DNA of 64,000 nt from Candidatus Woesebacteria bacterium (GCA_003484955.1 DMZH01000003.1:47815-111814); one strand, 5' to 3'; counted from the stretch's first letter, positions 6,144 through 64,000 are shown. Numbers and translations: made by a program. Notes: generated from the letters alone by a model not told the origin.

Positions 6144-6653
6144 TTAAAATGGGATGTCTTCCTCACCAGGTTCTTCCGCTTTTTCTTCTTTTACCTCGGT
6201 GGGGGCGGTTTCAGATTTACCGGATTTTTTTGCGGGTTTTCTGGCAGATACTTCCTCGGGTGAAACTTGAGGCTCTACTTCAGGTTCGGGAATGTCAATT
6301 CCGGAATCTCCAGAATCTTCCTTTTTATCCAAAATAACCATATCGCTTATCACTACTTCCGTTCTTTGTTTTTGGGTTCCGTCAGTACCTTGCCAAGAAC
6401 GTGTTGAGAGCCTGCCTTCAACGTAAACTTTTCTGCCTTTCTTCAAAAGCTGCGTGCAAATTTCGGCCAATTTATTCCAGGCTACAACATTATGAAACTC
6501 CACGTCTTCTTTCTTTTCTCCGCTTTCTGTTGTCCAGTTTCTGTTTGTAGCAACCCCGAAAGTACAAACCGCGGTTCCCTGGGGGGTATAACGCATTTCA
6601 GGATCGCGGGTTAAATTCCCTATCAACATTACTTTGTTTAAACTTCGTGCCAT
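6144..6653 (-). CDS. ssb: Single-stranded DNA-binding protein
   Basis: OB-fold N-terminus (MLIGNLTRDPE), acidic C-terminal tail ending DIPF. Confidence 0.9.
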   Translation of the reverse strand: MARSLNKVMLIGNLTRDPEMRYTPQGTAVCTFGVATNRNWTTESGEKKEDVEFHNVVAWNKLAEICTQLLKKGRKVYVEGRLSTRSWQGTDGTQKQRTEVVISDMVILDKKEDSGDSGIDIPEPEVEPQVSPEEVSARKPAKKSGKSETAPTEVKEEKAEEPGEEDIPF

Positions 6654-6941
6654 TTATTTATTTTTATTTATTAGTAAAAACCTAATTAAATCAGGGTCTA
6701 CTCTTAGTTTATCATTTAATGATTTTGCCCCTTTGGGGTCAAGTTCAATTTCGAAGAATAGGTAAAGCCCGGTCTCACTCTTTCCGATTTTGTAGGCAAG
6801 CTCTTTTACTCCCCAATCTTTAGACTCTTTAATTGATCCCTTAAAAATAGCCAAAACTTTTTCCAAAGTTTCGATTATTTTCTTTTTTTTGGCGGCTCCC
6901 GCCTTGCCGTCCAAAACCAGGGTTAATTCGTATTTATTCAT
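6654..6941 (-). CDS. rpsF: Ribosomal protein S6
   Basis: MNKYELTLVL start and length; rpsF-ssb-rpsR gene order. Confidence 0.85.
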   Translation of the reverse strand: MNKYELTLVLDGKAGAAKKKKIIETLEKVLAIFKGSIKESKDWGVKELAYKIGKSETGLYLFFEIELDPKGAKSLNDKLRVDPDLIRFLLINKNK

Positions 6942-49833: not shown

Positions 49834-50472
49834 TTATATCTTAACCATTCCCAACTTTCTGGGCCAGGTTTCATTTTTGGGAGTAATCACAAACATCATC
49901 TTTTTATCAACAATATTCTTTCCTTTGATTTTGTTCGTATCCCACCATCTTTTTTCAAAATCTTTGATTCGAAATCTTCTATCCACTCCCACAAAATCGG
50001 AATAGGAATCGCAAAGTCTCAAATAGTTGGCTTTTTTGTCGACCTTGGTAATAACCGCATAATGCCCATTATCCTCATCCTCATCTTCGTAAAAAACACC
50101 CTGCCATTCTACCCCGACCGGATAGCCATATTTATTTATAGCCAAGGAGATGTCATTGATGGTAGATCGGTGTTTCCTCCAAAAAACAACCTCATTTTTA
50201 CCTAAGATGTTGGTAGCACGAGCCAGGTCGTGAATATTAAGACCCAACCGTCTGATTTTGTTTTTTGCTCTTAAAGACCTAACAATTGCAATTTGTGAGA
50301 CGTTTTTCCCCAAAAACGAAAACAACTCCAAAATTACAGCCGGGCCGCAGTGATAGCTGGAAATTTGCCTGACACGCTTCATTCCCGGAAAGGGCTTGCC
50401 GACAACCTTATCCTCAAGCTTAAGAAGCCTTTGAAGCAATTTCCTGGTTTTAATGTTTTTCTCGAGTTCCAT
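49834..50472 (-). CDS. Stand-alone C39-like (papain-fold) cysteine peptidase
   Basis: RQISSYHCGPAVILELF (Q...CGPA) and later GHYAVITKVD...CDS match the C39 Q/C/H/D arrangement. Confidence 0.5.
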   Translation of the reverse strand: MELEKNIKTRKLLQRLLKLEDKVVGKPFPGMKRVRQISSYHCGPAVILELFSFLGKNVSQIAIVRSLRAKNKIRRLGLNIHDLARATNILGKNEVVFWRKHRSTINDISLAINKYGYPVGVEWQGVFYEDEDEDNGHYAVITKVDKKANYLRLCDSYSDFVGVDRRFRIKDFEKRWWDTNKIKGKNIVDKKMMFVITPKNETWPRKLGMVKI

Positions 50473-58259: not shown

Positions 58260-59042
58260 ATGGGAAAAATGAAAACAGCGTTTGTCGGAGAAGACTCCAA
58301 TAAAAAGAAAGAAAAAGAACAAGAAAAGGTTCACTTGGCCGGACTTAAAGGTGGTCAAAAAGTTAAAGTGGTTGAGGCAGCACCCGGCGAAGAGTCCCCG
58401 ATTATTGAAGAAGGAGCTCAGAACACCGAAGTCACCAAAAAATCAAAAAAGATCGAACACATAAGGGGTAAAAAATATAAAGAATCTAAAGCTAAATTTG
58501 ATCATGAAAAATTGTACAAAGTTTCTGAAGCAGTCAAACTTGTAAAAGAAACCTCTTATTCAAAATTTGACGGAACAATGGAACTACACCTTGTTGTCAA
58601 AAAGACGGGAACGTCCATCCAGATTACTCTTCCCCATCAGGCGGGTCGGGTTAAGAAAGTCGAAATCGCCAGTGAAGATACCATTACCAAACTTAAAGAA
58701 GGAAAAATTGATTTTGATATCTTAGTGGCAACACCCGATATGATGCCAAAACTTGTCCCGTTCGCGAAACTTTTAGGACCTAAAGGCCTTATGCCAAATC
58801 CCAAAAATGGAACTTTAATAAACGATCCCAAAAAGGTTAAGTCGTTTTCAACCGCAACGGTTACGTTAAAAACAGAAAGAGAAGCCCCTCTTGTACACAC
58901 TGTAGTCGGCAAAACAATTCAGGCGGATTCAGAGTTGGTTGAAAATCTTGAAGCCATTCTCAAGGCTTTTGGAGGTATAAAACAAATAGAAAAAGCATAT
59001 ATCAAAGCCACAATGGGCCCATCAGTGAAAGTTAAGGTATAA
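58260..59042 (+). CDS. rplA: Ribosomal protein L1 with about 50-aa Lys/Glu-rich N-terminal extension
   Basis: The L1 core starts about KESKAKFDHEKLYKVSEAVKLVKE. Confidence 0.85.
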   Translation: MGKMKTAFVGEDSNKKKEKEQEKVHLAGLKGGQKVKVVEAAPGEESPIIEEGAQNTEVTKKSKKIEHIRGKKYKESKAKFDHEKLYKVSEAVKLVKETSYSKFDGTMELHLVVKKTGTSIQITLPHQAGRVKKVEIASEDTITKLKEGKIDFDILVATPDMMPKLVPFAKLLGPKGLMPNPKNGTLINDPKKVKSFSTATVTLKTEREAPLVHTVVGKTIQADSELVENLEAILKAFGGIKQIEKAYIKATMGPSVKVKV

Positions 59043-59046
59043 CTTT

Positions 59047-59289
59047 TTGGATTTGATGAATTTTGGTTTTTTGATAAACTATAACCAAATGACAGAAGAA
59101 TCGACGGAAAGAGCCTTTAATCAATTGCCCCAAAAACCGATTTTAACCACCAAGGTGCTGGAAACTCCCGACTCAATTCAGAGAGAGTTTGATGTGGCTA
59201 AACTAAACCCAACTAGACTACAGGAAAAATTGGATGCCCAAAGAAGAATTGAAAAATTAAAAAAGAGTCAAATCGATAATCCCAGTTGA
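59047..59289 (+). CDS. Questionable small ORF in the rplA-rplJ spacer (more likely the L10 leader RNA region)
   Basis: ORF only. Confidence 0.15.
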   Translation: MDLMNFGFLINYNQMTEESTERAFNQLPQKPILTTKVLETPDSIQREFDVAKLNPTRLQEKLDAQRRIEKLKKSQIDNPS

Positions 59290-59982: not shown

Positions 59983-60387
59983 ATGGCAGAAGAATCTAAA
60001 AAAGTATCAGAAAAAGTTGAAAAGATTGTGGAGGAAGTTTCTAAACTTTCTGTTTTGGAACTTTCCGAACTAGTCACAGCTTTGCAAGACAAGCTTGGTG
60101 TTTCCGCCGCGCTTCCGGTTGCAGCAGCAGCCCCAGCAGCCGCAGGAGAAGCTCCAGCAGAAGATGCCGGCAGTGCTAATAAAACAGTAGTCATGACCGA
60201 TTCCGGTGCAAATAAAATTGCAGTTATTAAGGCTTTGAGGGAAATAAATCCCAACCTAACCTTAATGGATGCCAAAGGAATGACAGACACTGTTCCAGCT
60301 GAAGTTTTGAAAGATGCTAAAGCAGAAGATGCTAAGTCAGCTTCCGACAAACTTACCGCAGCAGGAGCAAAAGTGGAACTTAAATAA
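59983..60387 (+). CDS. rplL: Ribosomal protein L7/L12
   Basis: Ala-rich hinge AAAAPAAAGEAPAE, C-terminal domain KIAVIKALREI. Confidence 0.9.
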   Translation: MAEESKKVSEKVEKIVEEVSKLSVLELSELVTALQDKLGVSAALPVAAAAPAAAGEAPAEDAGSANKTVVMTDSGANKIAVIKALREINPNLTLMDAKGMTDTVPAEVLKDAKAEDAKSASDKLTAAGAKVELK

Positions 60388-60427: not shown

Positions 60428-60455
60428 GGTCCCGCCAAAAAGGCGGGATTTTTTG
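60428..60455 (+). terminator. Rho-independent terminator after rplL
   Basis: ggtcccgcc-aaaaa-ggcggga followed by tttttt. Confidence 0.75.
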
Positions 60456-60547
60456 TTGGGTAAATTCTTTGCTTCGTATTTTCTTTGGGGTGTGAAAGCC
60501 ACTATCTTTTTATAAAATGAAGGGTAAGTATTATAATCAAAATACTG

Positions 60548-61444
60548 TTAATTAGCCAAATAATCGACTATTTTAGATGCAACATTAATTCCTGTTGATT
60601 CCTCAAATCCTTCAAATTGACAGGCTCTATTTACTTCAAGCACAACCCACTTACCTTCTTCGTTTTTCATAAGATCTATACCACAATAATCCAATTTGAA
60701 AAGTTTTGAAGTTTCTAAAGCAATACTGTTCGCCTCTAAATCTTCTCCGATTTTATATGATTCGACCTTACCTCCTTGCGAATAATTACTCAAAAAGTTC
60801 CCGGGTAGGGCAATTCGTTTCATCGCCCCAACTATTTTTCCATTCAAAACAATAACACGCAAATCTTCAGCTTTGGGTAAAAGTCTTTGGAAAAGAAGGG
60901 TTTTAATTTTAAAGTTCGAATTAAATGTTTTAAAAAGTTTAAGAAGGTCGGAGTCTTCTGATATTTTGAAAACCCCAATTCCACTACTTCCGATAATGTC
61001 CTTAGCGATATACGGATACGCGTCTACACTCCATTTTTTGAGTTCTTCAATTGATGTAAAACTAAAACTCTCGACAACCGGAATGCCTGCCAGGGCTAAA
61101 TTAATATATTGAGTGGTTTTATCTAATGAAGGCCATTTACTAAATGATTTTTCATTTAATAATTTTGATCCTTTTAATTTAGACCACACAATAATCGCAG
61201 TCCGGATTGGATTATATACACTATCCTCCCCCAACCCCCGCAAAAAAATCCCATGAGGGACAGGCATTTCTTCACCTTTTAATTTGAGTTCGAATTCCCC
61301 TGTTGTATAAACAATGTTTATGTCGTTGTATTTAATCACCCGAAGATTGATGTTCTTATTTTTTGCTTCCTCGATCAACCTTTTTGGGGCATAAGCTTTC
61401 GGGCCGTGGGTAAATAGAATAATATCCAAATCAAATTTTTTCAT
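60548..61444 (-). CDS. RimK-like ATP-grasp ligase
   Basis: VVLEVNRACQFEGFEESTG C-terminal RimK-type motif; ATP-grasp fold length. Confidence 0.65.
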   Translation of the reverse strand: MKKFDLDIILFTHGPKAYAPKRLIEEAKNKNINLRVIKYNDINIVYTTGEFELKLKGEEMPVPHGIFLRGLGEDSVYNPIRTAIIVWSKLKGSKLLNEKSFSKWPSLDKTTQYINLALAGIPVVESFSFTSIEELKKWSVDAYPYIAKDIIGSSGIGVFKISEDSDLLKLFKTFNSNFKIKTLLFQRLLPKAEDLRVIVLNGKIVGAMKRIALPGNFLSNYSQGGKVESYKIGEDLEANSIALETSKLFKLDYCGIDLMKNEEGKWVVLEVNRACQFEGFEESTGINVASKIVDYLAN

Positions 61445-61458
61445 AACTCGCCATTATA

Positions 61459-62400
61459 TTATATTTTTGACGAAAAATTTTGGACAAGTGCATTCAAAAA
61501 ATTATCTCTATTTTTCATCTCCCACTTTGGAAAACCTATCTGATCATTTATCTCAAATATTTTGGGATTGCCATCTTTGTCTATACCAAAATCGAGACTG
61601 AATATCGGGTTGTCGTATTCTTTGTAAAAAATTTTGGAAATTATTTTAACTATTTTCTTAACAGATTCCGGAACCTTGGAATAATCAACCTCCGTTAAAC
61701 TACCTCCCTGAGCAGCATTGGCTAAAAGTGATCCTTCGGCGGGAACTCTTACGTGACACCAAACAGCCTTTCCATTAACTACAACTATTCTTAAATCATG
61801 TCTTCCCGAAGTTATATTAGGAACTCCATTTGAAGTATCAATAAATTCCTGAAGTATGTATTTTTTTCCTTCTTTTTCCGGACTAAAATTTTTCAAATCC
61901 TCTTTTAACCCTATAAAAATCCCCTTGCCACGAAGACCGTCATATGGTTTTAAAACGACATTGTCAGTTGTTATTTTGCTAACTAGTTTAGCAGCGTTTT
62001 TTAAATTTCCTACCCAATACGTTTTGGGCATATAACTCGATAACTTAAGATATGTTTCCCATTTATTACAGGTCAATTCCTTAAACTTTCTGATATTTAC
62101 AACTTTTAGGCTTTTCTCATTTTTGGGTGGGAATAACAAATTTCCTACCCAATCAAAAACTAAATCTAGTCTAACCGTTTCTTCTACTCTCACAAATTTT
62201 CCATTTTTAAATAACCATGCACCATCAAAACCGTTGCCTCCCTTGTACGTTTTTCTGGTAAGAATATATACTTTCCAACCCTCGGCCTGGCATAATTCTA
62301 ATAGCCGAAGATAAACCGGTAATTTCTTCCCGATGTGGCTTAGTGGAGCAACCCCTTCAAAACTTCTGGAAAAACACATTCCAAATCTAATCATTGACAT
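61459..62400 (-). CDS. YheC/YheD-like ATP-grasp ligase
   Basis: VVLKPYDGLRGKGIFI, DLRIVVVNGKAV, LANAAQGG, IFEINDQIGF. Confidence 0.65.
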   Translation of the reverse strand: MSMIRFGMCFSRSFEGVAPLSHIGKKLPVYLRLLELCQAEGWKVYILTRKTYKGGNGFDGAWLFKNGKFVRVEETVRLDLVFDWVGNLLFPPKNEKSLKVVNIRKFKELTCNKWETYLKLSSYMPKTYWVGNLKNAAKLVSKITTDNVVLKPYDGLRGKGIFIGLKEDLKNFSPEKEGKKYILQEFIDTSNGVPNITSGRHDLRIVVVNGKAVWCHVRVPAEGSLLANAAQGGSLTEVDYSKVPESVKKIVKIISKIFYKEYDNPIFSLDFGIDKDGNPKIFEINDQIGFPKWEMKNRDNFLNALVQNFSSKI

Positions 62401-63283
62401 TTTCCTTATTTAAAAATTTGGAAACCTCATCAATTTCCGGACTAACGGTTTTATCGTAATTAAATCCTGGCCCCCTATTAACTTCGAGAACAAAAACTTT
62501 TCCTGTTCCTTTTTCAATTGCGATATCAACTCCACCTATTTGAATATTTAAACTTTTTACCGCACTGACCGCGATTTTCTGGATTTCGCGACTTATAGAG
62601 CTAACATCCAGATATTCTTCATTCTGATTTAGATTGGAATAATTTAATTTTAGTGAACTGTAATCTCTTGGAACTTTTGTGTGAACAACTTTTACCGCGT
62701 CTCCCAAAACCAAGAACCTGTATTCACTTTCTAATGGGATATATTTTTGAAAAAGATATTTTGCGGTTCTTTGCTTTTCTCCAATTTTTTTGGGTAACTG
62801 GTCAAACTGTTTCTTATTAGAAATGGAGTAAATTCCGGTCATATGTTGACCAACCAACTCTTTGGCAATGATCGGAAAACCCATTTTGTTAATAATATAG
62901 TCTTCATATCTCTTTATACTTTCGCCCATACAAAAAATTGTTTGCGGCACAGGAATTCCAGCAATCGATAACTTTAAATATGATGTTAGTTTATCCCCCG
63001 AAGCTCCAATTTCACTAAAACTTCTATCAAAATAGGTAATTCCCAATTTATCAAGACATCGGGCAAGACTTCCTGCTAAGGAAAAATGAGAATGGTCTGC
63101 CCTACGGATGTAAACCAATTTATATTCGGTTACATCAATTCCTTTTACAAGAATTTTTATATTCTGCCCATCAACATTGAACATAAGATCTGTGAAACAT
63201 GCAACCTGCGCATTTGCTTCGTTACCAAGAAATTTGACCTTAGGACCAATTTTATCAACAAGAATTAATATTTTTTTCATCAT
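62387..63283 (-). CDS. RimK-like ATP-grasp ligase
   Basis: FPIIAKELVGQHMTGIY, RFLVLGDAV, VFVLEVNRGPGF. Confidence 0.65.
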   Translation of the reverse strand: MMKKILILVDKIGPKVKFLGNEANAQVACFTDLMFNVDGQNIKILVKGIDVTEYKLVYIRRADHSHFSLAGSLARCLDKLGITYFDRSFSEIGASGDKLTSYLKLSIAGIPVPQTIFCMGESIKRYEDYIINKMGFPIIAKELVGQHMTGIYSISNKKQFDQLPKKIGEKQRTAKYLFQKYIPLESEYRFLVLGDAVKVVHTKVPRDYSSLKLNYSNLNQNEEYLDVSSISREIQKIAVSAVKSLNIQIGGVDIAIEKGTGKVFVLEVNRGPGFNYDKTVSPEIDEVSKFLNKENVND

Positions 63284-63296
63284 TTTATGTAAACAC

Positions 63297-64000
63297 TTAG
63301 TTTGTCTGATCGTCTACCTTAACTAAAAAACCCTGAAGATCACGTCGTCCAATAATAAAGATCTTTTTCAAACCTTTTCTGTTTGATACGGAGGCTATTG
63401 TATTAATCCTTCTTCCCGCCAGGTAGAAACTAATATTAATAACCGCTCTTTCCTCAGATCCCAAAGCGCTTTTAAAAACTTTTGTCCAAAGAATATTATT
63501 TTTTTGCAGAAGACCATTATTCTCTGCAAAAGTTTTATCTATTGAGCTTCTCCATGCACCCGTATCGATCTTCGCAGTTACCTCTACTCTGCGTCTTTCT
63601 GGTGTCACAATTTTGACTGTTTCGTCATTTCTGATTGTCTTAATACCCTCTTGAGCGGCCTTTCTGTTCTCAAATCTTCCTGCAAAAAGCGCCTTAGCAA
63701 GCATTACTCCTCGTTCTGCATCGGTAACATCTAGGTCTTCGACCCTTTCCAGTCTCTTTTTAAGTCCCTCCCCATTAGCCAGCTGAATTTGAAGCCCGGG
63801 TTGAGCGTTAAGTTCCAAAACCATAGGGCCTTTTTCCGGATGAATTACAATATCAACCCCTAAATATCCCAAATGCGAAGCTTCCTGGGCTCTGACCGCA
63901 GTTTCCAAAACCGCATCCCAACCGGGTATTTTTATTCCCCGAAGTTTACGTTCTGTCCCCGGTTTGAATACAATTTCCTCTCCATGCCAAATAGCTTTTG
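63297..64000 (-). CDS. RimK-like ATP-grasp C-terminal domain fused to a retropepsin-like (DTGA) aspartic-protease-type domain; N-terminus lies beyond the window edge
   Basis: LGYLGVDIVIHPEKGPMVLELNAQPG (ATP-grasp C-terminus) then VEVTAKIDTGAWRSSID; the frame stays open to nt 64000 upstream of the TTG the ORF finder chose. Confidence 0.6.
   Translation of the reverse strand, partial: KAIWHGEEIVFKPGTERKLRGIKIPGWDAVLETAVRAQEASHLGYLGVDIVIHPEKGPMVLELNAQPGLQIQLANGEGLKKRLERVEDLDVTDAERGVMLAKALFAGRFENRKAAQEGIKTIRNDETVKIVTPERRRVEVTAKIDTGAWRSSIDKTFAENNGLLQKNNILWTKVFKSALGSEERAVINISFYLAGRRINTIASVSNRKGLKKIFIIGRRDLQGFLVKVDDQTN

What the first reader, a model, noticed from the sequence alone, without database searches (positions are those of the whole stretch)
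60548..64000. Four tandem RimK/YheCD-like ATP-grasp ligases, the last fused to a retropepsin-like DTGA domain, immediately after rplL
Four consecutive same-strand ATP-grasp peptide-ligase paralogs with 1-14 nt gaps or overlaps look like an operon. The terminal gene carries a C-terminal domain with IDTGAWRSSID, a retropepsin-like aspartyl-protease signature that is known to be associated with RimK-like ligases as the so-called ATP-dependent zinc protease family. RimK normally adds glutamates to the C-terminus of ribosomal protein S6, but S6 here ends in KNK rather than acidic residues. So the target is unclear and could be another ribosomal or secreted peptide. Four ligases plus a protease suggests several amino acids are ligated, or a processed peptide product.
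Basis: partly seen in the sequence, partly recalled or inferred. Interest (0 to 1): 0.7.

Follow-up and report, generated by a model that had tools for sequence, protein, structure and literature searches.

The report
Compact Rlo-like peptide ligase–protease operon
Four adjacent ATP-dependent amino-acid ligase genes, one fused to a retrovirus-type protease, form with an upstream membrane-protein gene a streamlined version of the recently described bacterial Rlo cell-envelope stress system, here in a tiny-genome groundwater bacterium (Woesebacteria), and it most likely makes, trims and exports an acidic peptide rather than modifying the ribosome.

Summary
Window 60548-64000 carries four tightly packed ATP-grasp ligase genes on the minus strand, convergent with rplL. 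The gene cut by the window end has a C-terminal retropepsin-fold domain.

An identical contig extends the window and changes the picture. The fused gene (430 aa) is the first ligase gene, not the last. A 7TM_transglut membrane-protein gene precedes it. Together these are the three components of the rloABC system of Pseudomonas (mBio 2025), rearranged:
- an RloC-type ATP-grasp (PF14397) fused to an RloA/RimB-type peptidase that keeps the catalytic Asp and three polyglutamate-binding basic residues;
- an RloB-type 7TM protein without its transglutaminase domain.

In 79 of 81 Patescibacteria loci this pair is conserved, about as strongly as ribosomal protein L12. The three downstream RimK-clade ligases belong to a variable accessory cassette (0-3 ligases, sometimes a methyltransferase or GNAT). 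Natural fusions link the ligase to the 7TM, to extra ATP-grasps and to MATCAP peptidases.

S6 ends in KNK, so ribosomal glutamylation is unlikely. My best reading, which is inferred, is membrane-docked synthesis, trimming and export of an acidic (poly-alpha-glutamate-like) peptide.

Verdict: a new variant of a known, biochemically unsolved kind. Interest is moderate.

The parts
63297..64000 (-). geneA, the 3' part (residues 198-430 of a 430-aa protein; the 5' part lies beyond the window end). It is an RloC-type ATP-grasp ligase fused to a C-terminal retropepsin-like peptidase.
   Evidence: Translation. The full gene is on L001 8695-9987, and L001 is identical to the window over 8000 nt. PF14397 230.7 bits and TIGR02291 272.8 bits.
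63738..63998 (-). C-terminal part of the ATP-grasp catalytic domain of geneA, including the Mg-binding E-x-N motif (VLELNAQPG).
   Evidence: PF14397 covers residues 12-284. D246, E259 and N261 are invariant in 34-56 homologues. The model's nearest solved folds are ArgX/LysX/RimK, E about 1e-10.
63315..63644 (-). Retropepsin-like (PF05618, RloA/RimB-type) peptidase domain of geneA, residues about 316-425. Catalytic D342-T-G-A is at 63566..63555. The GRRDL motif lies near the C-terminus.
   Evidence: Profile against PDB: 9g59 E 4e-9, 9g58 E 1.8e-7, 2pma E 6e-6. AF2 model pLDDT is about 90 in the domain. Foldseek top hits are RloA2, RloA and Lpg0085, then retroviral and Ddi1 proteases. D342, G344, A345, R381 and R404 are invariant and K340 is at least 90% conserved.
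62387..63283 (-). geneB, an accessory RimK-clade ATP-grasp ligase (298 aa).
   Evidence: PF08443 E 3.7e-11 and TIGR00768 E 1.6e-25, below cut-off. Nearest solved sequences are Ddl (2e-8) and RimK (2e-6). The catalytic K/R/D-E-N set is conserved in 47 relatives.
61459..62400 (-). geneC, an accessory divergent ATP-grasp ligase (311-313 aa) and its own subfamily (g1).
   Evidence: PF14398 E 4e-13, PF14397 E 5.6e-12, PF02955 E 1.9e-10. The only solved-sequence hit is GshB at 1.6e-4. The subfamily is present in 26 loci. Catalytic residues are conserved.
60548..61444 (-). geneD, an accessory RimK-family alpha-L-glutamate-ligase-like ATP-grasp (298 aa).
   Evidence: TIGR00768 156.9 bits against a 143.4 cut-off, but the S6-ligase equivalog PRK10446 reaches only 65.5 of 331. 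Nearest solved sequences are Pseudomonas RimK 7qyr/7qys at 1e-17.
60430..60448 (-). Terminator-like G+C-rich hairpin followed by a T-run, between the stop of geneD and the stop of the convergent rplL. It is the probable end of the operon.
   Evidence: Consensus scan on L001 12836-12854, converted with window = 73284 - L001. This is a pattern match only.
6654..6941 (-). rpsF (ribosomal protein S6, 95 aa), the canonical RimK target. Here it lacks an acidic C-terminus (ends INKNK). It is listed as an excluded candidate substrate, not as part of the operon.
   Evidence: tblastn with E. coli S6. ORF translation.

Best explanation
The four genes are the last four of a five-gene operon in a Woesebacteria-like (Patescibacteria/CPR) genome. 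In transcription order it encodes:
1. a 7TM membrane protein of the RloB family that lacks the extracellular transglutaminase-like domain (just outside the window);
2. an RloC-type ATP-grasp ligase fused at its C-terminus to an RloA/RimB-type retropepsin peptidase (geneA);
3. three RimK-clade ATP-grasp ligases (geneB, geneC, geneD).

It is a compact variant of the Rlo system, with the ligase-plus-peptidase logic of RimK/RimB.

Proposed mechanism (inferred, not shown):
- The ligase docks on the conserved basic C-terminal tail of the 7TM protein.
- It uses ATP to build an alpha-linked acidic peptide, most likely oligo- or poly-glutamate. It starts from free amino acid or from an unidentified acceptor.
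- The fused peptidase must dimerise to form its two-Asp active site. It cuts or releases the chains on the cytoplasmic side, as RimB does for RimK.
- The 7TM protein passes the product to the cell envelope.
- The accessory ligases extend or decorate the product. Their number and type vary between relatives, and some loci add a methyltransferase or a GNAT.

The system does not glutamylate ribosomal protein S6.

Shown here: domain identities, the retropepsin fold, conserved catalytic and substrate-binding residues, gene order, conservation, and natural fusions.
Inferred: the amino acid used, the polymeric product, export, and the envelope role.
For: Gene order and identity:
- An identical contig shows 7TM_transglut, then geneA, geneB, geneC and geneD.
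- The 7TM protein scores PF14402 95.7 bits and matches NF052267 RloB only over profile positions 312-507 of 508.
- geneA scores PF14397 230.7 bits and TIGR02291 272.8 bits.

Peptidase domain:
- The profile hits RloA2 and RloA structures at E 4e-9 and 1.8e-7, and the fold search puts the same entries on top.
- K340, D342, R381 and R404 align with RloA K46, D48, R114 and R137. In the paper, D48 is the catalytic Asp. R114 and R137 are needed for polyE cleavage and for complementation. K46 is modelled as contacting polyE (PMC12239564, read).

Published precedents:
- RimB stimulates free poly-alpha-Glu synthesis by RimK, and a natural RimB-RimK hybrid is proteolytically active (PMC11957791).
- Deleting rloB or rloC suppresses the triple rloA-protease mutant, so the ligase and the 7TM protein act in the same pathway as the peptidase. 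This fits their making what the peptidase removes, which is my inference.

Conservation:
- The 7TM + geneA pair is present in 79 of 81 loci.
- geneA identity tracks rplL identity (mean 68% against 68%, r 0.86, 43 loci).

Natural fusions:
- 7TM+ATP-grasp, peptidase+7TM+ATP-grasp, and ATP-grasp+peptidase+second ATP-grasp, +MATCAP or +YdjC.
- The 7TM C-terminal motif GLR..E..RFRKL is conserved, and in the fusions the ligase N-terminus follows it directly.

Ligases:
- All four keep the catalytic residues.
- geneB and geneD score best against the RimK/LysX/MptN clade models. geneC scores best against RimK_fam and MptN, followed by glutathione synthase. The characterised members of that clade ligate acidic amino acids (established knowledge).

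S6 ends in KNK.
Against: - No product or substrate is known, even for the Pseudomonas Rlo system.
- The peptidase sits on the opposite side of the membrane from secreted RloA, so its role may differ.
- TIGR02291 is below its equivalog cut-off (272.8 against 314.2).
- PF05618 is below its gathering score for the single sequence.
- No transport activity has been shown for any 7TM_transglut protein.
- A ligase fused to a peptidase of opposite activity in one compartment looks futile unless it is regulated.
- Glycosyltransferase, GH18 and PBP neighbours in distant loci fit amidation of a glycopolymer equally well.
- Specificity for glutamate is extrapolated from conserved basic residues. It has not been measured.
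Confidence: 0.5

Rival explanations
1. A cytoplasmic protein-tail modification system of the RimK/RimB type. The ligases add glutamates (or other residues) to the C-terminus of a specific protein, ribosomal or not. The fused peptidase trims them back, tuning that protein's activity. The 7TM protein would then be a sensor or regulator rather than an exporter.
For: - geneD passes the RimK-family cut-off and is closest to the Pseudomonas RimK structures.
- The peptidase is cytoplasmic like RimB, and the RimBK hybrid is a precedent.
- MATCAP carboxypeptidase fusions recall eukaryotic tubulin tail editing.
Against: - S6 ends INKNK.
- No ORF in the 64-kb window has an acidic tail. The only run of six acidic residues is internal (EDEDED, 49834-50472).
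- The PRK10446 equivalog reaches 65.5 of 331 bits.
- The invariant partner is a membrane protein, and covalent 7TM-ligase fusions exist.
- The rplL neighbourhood is limited to one lineage.
Confidence: 0.15
2. Amino-acid amidation of a cell-envelope glycopolymer or of peptidoglycan. The ATP-grasp ligases attach amino acids to carboxyl groups of uronic acids or muropeptides, and the 7TM protein links this to envelope assembly.
For: - PF14397 is named 'sugar-transfer associated ATP-grasp'.
- GT4 glycosyltransferases, a GH18 and a class A PBP lie next to the core in Moranbacteria- and Shapirobacteria-like loci.
- A YdjC deacetylase fusion exists.
- The Pseudomonas phenotypes are cell shape, beta-lactam sensitivity and hypo-osmotic lysis.
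Against: - The peptidase domain keeps the polyE-binding residues of RloA. That points to a peptide chain of several acidic residues, not to single amide-linked residues.
- No sugar-handling gene lies in this window's operon.
- The neighbours in distant loci may be plain synteny.
Confidence: 0.15
3. A small non-ribosomal peptide natural product (L-amino-acid-ligase type), such as an antibiotic, signal or metal binder. It would be built stepwise by four ligases, tailored in some strains by a methyltransferase or GNAT, and exported by the divergent ABC transporter.
For: - Several different ATP-grasp ligases sit in a row.
- Methyltransferase and GNAT genes sit inside the cassette in related loci.
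- The accessory cassette has been swapped between genomes whose flanks are 94% identical, and the ABC exporter lies in the same divergent block.
Against: - The core pair is inherited vertically and is as conserved as L12 across many CPR lineages. That is unusual for secondary metabolism.
- Twenty of 81 loci carry no gene of the main accessory ligase cluster. Some of these hold fused or divergent ATP-grasp genes instead, and several have none.
- The ABC transporter is near the core in only about 21-24 Woesebacteria-like loci.
- The peptidase resembles polyE-specific enzymes.
Confidence: 0.12
4. Unrelated housekeeping ligases (Ddl, glutathione synthetase, PurK, cyanophycin synthetase) that merely happen to be adjacent.
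For: There are weak hits of geneB to Ddl (PDB 3r23 at 1.9e-8) and of geneC to GshB (1gsa at 1.6e-4).
Against: - All equivalog scores are far below their cut-offs: Ddl 41.5 of 243, GshB 40.4 of 272, CphA 32.8 of 850.
- The genes are tightly packed.
- They recur with the 7TM-ligase core in 61 of 81 loci and are fused to it in some genomes.
Confidence: 0.02

Closest known systems
rloABC operon of Pseudomonas aeruginosa / P. fluorescens (Lormand et al., mBio 2025, PMC12239564); NCBIfam RloB NF052267, RloA3 NF052264, TIGR02291
   Same: The same three protein families are adjacent: a 7TM_transglut membrane protein, an ATPgrasp_ST/TIGR02291 cytoplasmic ligase and a PF05618 retropepsin-like peptidase. 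The peptidase keeps the catalytic Asp and three of the basic residues that bind polyglutamate in RloA.
   Different: - The peptidase is fused to the C-terminus of the ligase and has no signal peptide, so it is cytoplasmic rather than secreted.
- The 7TM protein lacks the inactive transglutaminase domain. A Pro/Thr-rich stretch of about 65 aa takes its place.
- Gene order differs, and three more ATP-grasp ligases follow.
- The host is a Patescibacteria genome without an outer membrane, whereas the paper reports RloB as 96% proteobacterial.
- TIGR02291 is below its equivalog cut-off.
RimK/RimB and the natural RimBK hybrid (Little et al., JBC 2025, PMC11957791; Grenga et al. 2020, PMC7343187)
   Same: A cytoplasmic ATP-grasp glutamate ligase is paired, and in RimBK fused, with a PF05618 retropepsin endopeptidase. 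RimB both trims polyE and stimulates free poly-alpha-glutamate synthesis. geneD belongs to the RimK family.
   Different: - The domain order is reversed (ligase N-terminal, peptidase C-terminal).
- The fused ligase belongs to a different ATP-grasp family (PF14397, no significant similarity to geneD).
- The target S6 lacks the acidic tail.
- An obligatory 7TM partner is present.
- There is no RimA.
The three-gene neighbourhood '7TM inactive transglutaminase + ATP-grasp + aspartyl peptidase' predicted by Iyer, Abhiman, Burroughs and Aravind 2009 (Mol Biosyst 5:1636). This paper is the origin of Pfam PF14402, PF14397 and PF14400. It is cited from memory and from the reference lists, because the paper itself could not be read.
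   Same: The same domain families and the same idea of a peptide-making amidoligase coupled to a peptidase and a membrane protein.
   Different: I could not check whether that paper described the ligase-peptidase fusion, the transglutaminase-less 7TM form or the extra ligase cassettes.
Poly-gamma-glutamate synthesis and export complex PgsBCA/CapBCA with its depolymerase (own knowledge; a 'works like' comparison only)
   Same: A membrane-associated, ATP-dependent, non-ribosomal polymerisation of glutamate, coupled to export and to a dedicated hydrolase.
   Different: The proteins are unrelated (a Mur-ligase-like PgsB, not an ATP-grasp). The linkage is gamma. There is no homology with any component here.
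Eukaryotic tubulin tail editing: TTL/TTLL ATP-grasp ligases against MATCAP/CCP peptidases (own knowledge, plus Pfam PF08014 and PF03133 hits)
   Same: ATP-grasp ligases that add amino acids to a peptide C-terminus are opposed by dedicated peptidases. Relatives of geneA are fused to a MATCAP-family domain.
   Different: This window has no MATCAP gene in the operon, and the acceptor is unknown. The resemblance is one of logic, not of membership.

Membership tests
Rlo system (rloABC) | RloC-type cytoplasmic ATP-grasp ligase (Pfam PF14397 ATPgrasp_ST) | tested here: met
   geneA full length scores PF14397 230.7 bits against a cut-off of 31.4, residues 12-284.
Rlo system (rloABC) | Ligase reaches the NCBIfam TIGR02291 equivalog cut-off | tested here: not met
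   272.8 bits against a cut-off of 314.2. It is clearly related but below the curated threshold.
Rlo system (rloABC) | RloB: seven-transmembrane module (PF14402) | tested here: met
   L001 7798-8682 scores PF14402 95.7 bits against a cut-off of 25. The hydropathy scan gives an N-terminal anchor and five clear hydrophobic peaks between residues 94 and 280. More helices were judged by eye, and the count of seven was not established.
Rlo system (rloABC) | RloB: N-terminal extracytoplasmic inactive transglutaminase domain | tested here: not met
   The protein is 294 aa. NF052267 matches only profile positions 312-507 of 508. The N-terminus is a signal/anchor followed by a Pro/Thr-rich segment. The median length in 79 loci is 295 aa.
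Rlo system (rloABC) | RloA: PF05618 retropepsin fold with D-T/S-G-A and basic polyE-binding residues | tested here: met
   Profile against PDB: 9g59 E 4e-9 and 9g58 E 1.8e-7. The Foldseek top hits are the same entries. K340, D342, R381 and R404 are conserved. As a single sequence, PF05618 is below its gathering score (24.0 bits on the window fragment and 21.9 on the full length, against 27).
Rlo system (rloABC) | RloA: separate secreted protein with an N-terminal signal peptide | tested here: not met
   The domain is residues about 316-425 of the ligase polypeptide. No hydrophobic segment separates it from the ATP-grasp domain.
Rlo system (rloABC) | The three components are encoded adjacently on one strand | tested here: met
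   The 7TM gene and geneA are 12 nt apart on L001. The pair is present in 79 of 81 loci.
Rlo system (rloABC) | Role in hypo-osmotic tolerance, cell shape and antibiotic tolerance | not testable with these tools
   Known only from Pseudomonas genetics.
RimK/RimB ribosomal protein S6 glutamylation | RimK-family ligase (TIGR00768) and the S6-ligase equivalog (PRK10446) | tested here: inconclusive
   geneD scores TIGR00768 156.9 against 143.4 (met), but PRK10446 65.5 against 331 (not met). geneA, geneB and geneC are below the TIGR00768 cut-off.
RimK/RimB ribosomal protein S6 glutamylation | S6 with a C-terminal glutamate acceptor | tested here: not met
   S6 (window 6941..6654, minus strand) ends ...RFLLINKNK.
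RimK/RimB ribosomal protein S6 glutamylation | RimB peptidase separate from, or fused N-terminally to, RimK (RimBK) | tested here: not met
   Here the peptidase is C-terminal to a PF14397 ligase. That ligase has no significant similarity to geneD, the RimK-family member.
Housekeeping ATP-grasp ligases (Ddl, GshB, CphA, PurK) | Reaches the curated equivalog score | tested here: not met
   Best scores: Ddl 41.5 of 243, GshB 44.6 of 272 (geneD; 40.4 for geneC), CphA 32.8 of 850, PurK 19 of 326.
Graspetide (RiPP) ATP-grasp maturases | Maturase family score and an adjacent precursor peptide gene | tested here: not met
   TIGR04187 scores 39 of 350 and MvdC/MvdD 27 and 24 of 425 and 475. The operon has no small ORF, because the gaps are 14 nt or less.

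The most novel reading that the evidence does not exclude
The conserved 7TM + ligase-peptidase pair is a housekeeping, membrane-coupled, template-free peptide synthase/exporter. It would supply an acidic peptide component of the Patescibacteria cell envelope. The swappable downstream cassettes (extra ATP-grasp ligases, methyltransferase, GNAT, MATCAP) would give each strain a chemically different version, as O-antigen or capsule loci do for sugars. That would be a new class of envelope polymer. It would also reveal the long-sought product of the Rlo system.
Probability: 0.25. Interest if true: 0.75.

Novelty: new variant of a known kind. Interest (0 to 1): 0.5.

Why it matters
The Rlo system was named only in 2025. 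It affects antibiotic tolerance, biofilm formation and cell shape in Pseudomonas, yet neither its product nor its substrate is known.

This Patescibacteria version reduces the system to two polypeptides: a bare 7TM protein and a ligase-peptidase fusion. Across Woesebacteria-like genomes of roughly 0.8-1.1 Mb (complete records), geneA is conserved about as strongly as a ribosomal protein. Natural fusions tie the ligase to the membrane protein, to further ligases and to a second kind of peptidase.

That gives three things:
- comparative evidence on which parts are essential (the 7TM core, the ligase and the peptidase, but not the transglutaminase domain and not secretion of the peptidase);
- a small, tractable system for in-vitro reconstitution;
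- a hint that organisms with almost no biosynthetic capacity invest four ATP-dependent ligases in one peptide product, possibly part of their poorly understood envelope.

Tried and rejected
- Rfam scan of L001 5000-15500: no RNA family at gathering score.
- PADLOC defence models on all five proteins: nothing meaningful.
- Search for candidate acceptors. The window has no ORF with an acidic C-terminal tail and only one internal EDEDED run. The 72-aa upstream ORF is an HTH_17 DNA-binding protein ending KEE, and I did not treat it as a carrier.
- The C-termini of the 7TM protein and of geneB, geneC and geneD are not acidic, so self-modification is unlikely.
- The promoter scan was uninformative: 23 hits against 15 expected.
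- Iyer et al. 2009 (PMC3268129) is not held, so its predictions could not be checked.
- A literature search for Patescibacteria with RimK or ATP-grasp found no paper on this system in CPR.
- I considered and rejected the idea that closeness to rplL means L7/L12 is the target. The genes are convergent and separated by a terminator-like hairpin, and the linkage is confined to one lineage.
- I considered recent tandem duplication. It is rejected by 28-29% or non-significant pairwise identity.
- No other paralogues of these genes occur in the window.

Full report
**1. What is in the sequence**

Window 60548-64000 holds four ORFs on the minus strand:
- geneD, 61444..60548 (298 aa);
- geneC, 62400 or 62394..61459 (313 or 311 aa);
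- geneB, 63283..62387 (298 aa);
- an ORF open at the window end, geneA, 63998..63297 (233 aa visible).

The spacings are a 13-nt gap, an 8-14-nt overlap and a 14-nt gap. rplL (59983-60387) is on the plus strand, so the block converges on it. A terminator-like G+C hairpin with a T-run lies between the two stop codons (window 60430-60448). In transcription order the fused gene is therefore the first of the four, not the last.

All four match ATP-grasp families:
- geneD passes the RimK-family cut-off (TIGR00768, 156.9 against 143.4 bits).
- geneB and geneC are weaker members of the same broad clade.
- geneA's visible part is the C-terminal end of PF14397/TIGR02291.

They are not recent duplicates. 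B-D share 29% identity, C-D 28%, and A has no significant similarity to the others. All four keep the Mg-binding E-x-N motif. The relatives of geneB, geneC and geneD keep the Lys/Arg/Asp-Glu-Asn catalytic set. No housekeeping equivalog (Ddl, GshB, CphA, PurK, RimK-S6 ligase) comes near its cut-off.

**2. Extending the window**

An exact-protein look-up found contigs that carry geneB. L001 (JGI 3300025011, 62.5 kb) is identical to the window over all 8000 compared bases.
- geneA is 430 aa. PF14397 covers residues 12-284 (230.7 bits). TIGR02291 gives 272.8 bits, under its 314.2 cut-off.
- Twelve nucleotides upstream of geneA lies a 294-aa gene with PF14402 7TM_transglut (95.7 bits). It matches NCBIfam 'RloB' only over profile positions 312-507 of 508.
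- Its N-terminus is a signal/anchor followed by a Pro/Thr-rich stretch of about 65 aa, and then the transmembrane bundle.

The operon therefore has five genes, and its first gene lies outside the window.

**3. The DTGA domain**

As a single sequence the C-terminal 140 aa match PF05618 and NF052264 (RloA3) only below threshold. Three stronger tests followed.
- A 40-sequence alignment from related loci has invariant D, G, A (of DTGA), D, R, R and G, and a nearly invariant K two residues before the catalytic Asp.
- The profile of that alignment hits PDB 9g59 (E 4e-9), 9g58 (1.8e-7) and 2pma (6e-6), followed by Ddi1 and Rickettsia retropepsins.
- An AlphaFold model of the window's own 140 residues (mean pLDDT 83.4, about 90 or more in the domain) finds RloA2, RloA and Lpg0085 first. 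Retroviral proteases (HIV-1, SFV, HTLV, EIAV) and Ddi1 follow, with 52 hits at E <= 1e-3.

In the HMM alignment, K340/D342/R381/R404 of geneA line up with K24/D26/R94/R117 of RloA2. By spacing these correspond to K46/D48/R114/R137 of RloA. In the paper, D48 is the catalytic Asp, and R114 and R137 are required for polyglutamate cleavage and for complementation. K46 is modelled as a polyE contact (PMC12239564).

The full-length model, built on P0001 (91% identical, pLDDT 82.9), places the ligase part nearest ArgX/LysX and RimK (E about 1e-10). No solved structure of the PF14397 family was found by sequence.

**4. What the literature says**
- Lormand et al. 2025 (PMC12239564) named the rloABC operon of Pseudomonas. 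RloA is a secreted retropepsin-like peptidase that cuts runs of 8 or more Glu. RloB is an inactive transglutaminase fused to 7TM. RloC is a cytoplasmic ATP-grasp.
- In that work, deleting rloB or rloC suppresses the lethality of the triple peptidase mutant in low-salt medium. The product is unknown, and RloB was reported as 96% proteobacterial.
- Little et al. 2025 (PMC11957791) showed that RimB is an endopeptidase that trims polyE. It also stimulates free poly-alpha-glutamate synthesis by RimK. A natural RimB-RimK hybrid (peptidase N-terminal) is proteolytically active.
- The three-gene neighbourhood was first predicted by Iyer et al. 2009. I could not read that paper.

**5. Distribution and conservation**
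- geneA homologues are numerous: 5790 hits, the best 120 at 73-91% identity, nearly all about 430 aa.
- A scan of species-representative genomes returned 80 loci labelled Woesebacteria, Microgenomates, Blackburn-, Collier-, Beckwith-, Shapiro-, Levy-, Moran-, Kaiserbacteria and Paceibacterota.
- The 7TM + geneA pair is present in 79 of 81 loci.
- Over 43 loci, geneA identity to the window protein equals that of L7/L12 (mean 68% against 68%, r 0.86). The 7TM protein follows at 66%.
- The core therefore behaves like a vertically inherited, strongly constrained gene.

What follows the core varies:
- 0-3 single ATP-grasp genes (121 proteins in 61 loci);
- a double ATP-grasp fusion of 613 aa, and a roughly 780-aa protein in which only one ATP-grasp domain was detected;
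- a SAM methyltransferase in 13 loci and a GNAT in 4;
- GT4 glycosyltransferases, a GH18 and a class A PBP in distant lineages.

The B-C-D arrangement of this window occurs in 5-6 loci.

The closest genome (L007) is about 94% identical in flanking DNA. It is only 81.5% identical over 7TM + geneA and 77.6% over the divergent ABC exporter. It is nearly unalignable over the accessory ligases, and geneD is absent. More distant genomes (L013, L015, L060) carry orthologous B-C-D at 70-78%. So the cassette has been exchanged.

**6. Natural fusions**

A search of 50%-identity representatives with Pfam annotation showed these architectures:
- ATPgrasp_ST + PF05618 + MATCAP (about 790 aa, many representatives);
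- ATPgrasp_ST + PF05618 + a second ATP-grasp (926 aa);
- ATPgrasp_ST + PF05618 + YdjC;
- Transglut_core + 7TM + ATPgrasp_ST;
- 7TM + ATPgrasp_ST;
- TM anchor + PF05618 + 7TM + ATPgrasp_ST.

Gene contexts of two of them repeat the theme. One locus runs PKD-PKD-7TM, the triple fusion, two ATP-grasps, a MATCAP gene and another ATP-grasp.

The 7TM proteins of all CPR loci end in a conserved basic motif, G(K/R)Y.GLR..E..RFRKL. In the 7TM-ligase fusions the ligase N-terminus follows this motif directly. This argues for direct docking of the ligase on the cytoplasmic tail of the 7TM protein.

The extracellular part of the 7TM protein is interchangeable: transglutaminase-like, PKD, Pro/Thr linker or nothing. 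The peptidase occurs on either side of the membrane. It is outside in RloA and in P0328, and inside in the CPR fusions and in RimB.

**7. Mechanism**

*Shown:*
- a five-gene operon;
- four predicted-active ATP-grasp ligases;
- a retropepsin-fold domain with catalytic and acidic-substrate-binding residues conserved;
- an obligatory 7TM partner.

*Inferred:*
- The ligase makes an alpha-linked acidic peptide. Glutamate is the best guess for two reasons. The RimK/LysX/MptN clade uses acidic amino acids, and the peptidase keeps the polyE-binding arginines.
- The fused peptidase, as a dimer, cuts or releases chains, as RimB does for RimK.
- The 7TM protein passes the product to the envelope.
- The accessory ligases elaborate it.

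S6 cannot be the acceptor, because it ends INKNK. No acidic-tailed ORF is in the window. I put about 0.85 on 'Rlo-type module, new architecture' and about 0.5 on the mechanism as a whole.

Rivals:
- protein-tail editing of an unknown cytoplasmic protein (0.15);
- amino-acid amidation of an envelope glycopolymer (0.15);
- a small peptide natural product (0.12);
- unrelated housekeeping ligases (0.02, refuted).

**8. Novelty and verdict**

Every domain family is known, and the closest system was published in 2025. The following appear undescribed in the papers I could search:
- the ligase-to-peptidase fusion in this order;
- the loss of the transglutaminase domain;
- the cytoplasmic location of the peptidase;
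- the variable multi-ligase cassette;
- the wide, housekeeping-like conservation in Patescibacteria.

I file it as a new variant of a known kind, with interest 0.5. It is not a surprise in kind. It is a useful comparative handle on an unsolved system and a possible clue to the CPR envelope.

Noticed in passing
L001 5450-12790 (= window 60494-64000 and beyond the window end) compared with L007: Between two genomes whose flanks are about 94% identical in DNA, one block is much more divergent. It comprises the ABC exporter, the 7TM gene, geneA and the accessory ligases, at 65-81% identity. geneD is missing in L007. More distant genomes keep orthologous B-C-D. The locus looks like a recombination or replacement island.
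   Followed up: partly
L001 8590-8682 (C-terminus of the 7TM protein, outside the window); all 79 related loci: A strongly conserved basic tail motif, G(K/R)Y.GLR..E..RFRKL, ends every CPR 7TM_transglut protein. In natural 7TM-ligase fusions (P0328, P0329) the ligase starts right after it. It is probably the docking site.
   Followed up: partly
L087 1870-10678; P0217, P0239, P0264: Relatives carry a MATCAP (PF08014) metallopeptidase domain fused behind the ligase-retropepsin unit, plus a second free MATCAP gene. The 7TM partner there has extracellular PKD repeats instead of a transglutaminase domain. This pairs ATP-grasp ligases with MATCAP, as in eukaryotic tubulin tail editing.
   Followed up: partly
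Loci L007-L012, L017, L020, L022, L023 and others (record titles): Many MAG records that carry this Patescibacteria-type locus, next to Woesebacteria-like ribosomal genes, are titled 'uncultured Gammaproteobacteria bacterium' or 'uncultured Bdellovibrionales'. These are probably placeholder or wrong taxonomy in the deposited records.
   Followed up: no
L001 685-5242 (beyond the window end, upstream of the ABC exporter): A run of mevalonate-pathway-like genes: two GHMP kinases, diphosphomevalonate decarboxylase, NUDIX and a prenyltransferase. This is notable for a tiny-genome bacterium.
   Followed up: no
window 58260-59042 (+) and 59047-59289 (+): Ribosomal protein L1 is 260 aa. It has a Lys/Glu-rich N-terminal extension of about 65 aa before the usual start of the L1 fold, judged by eye. 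An 80-aa ORF sits between L1 and L10 and recurs in the closest relatives. It may be a real small gene, or just the L10 leader region.
   Followed up: no
window 6144-6941 (-): S6 (95 aa) lacks any acidic tail. The adjacent SSB keeps the usual acidic C-terminal tip (…EEPGEEDIPF).
   Followed up: yes
L027 10095-10745, L042 11625-12131, L033 6249-6824: In related loci a SAM methyltransferase (13 loci), a GNAT acetyltransferase (4 loci) and a roughly 195-aa protein with no Pfam match sit among or just after the accessory genes downstream of geneA. This suggests tailoring of the product.
   Followed up: partly
L001 5525-5743 (outside the window): A 72-aa HTH_17 (excisionase/MerR-like) gene lies just upstream of the ABC exporter or of the 7TM gene in 20 loci. 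It could be a local regulator.
   Followed up: no
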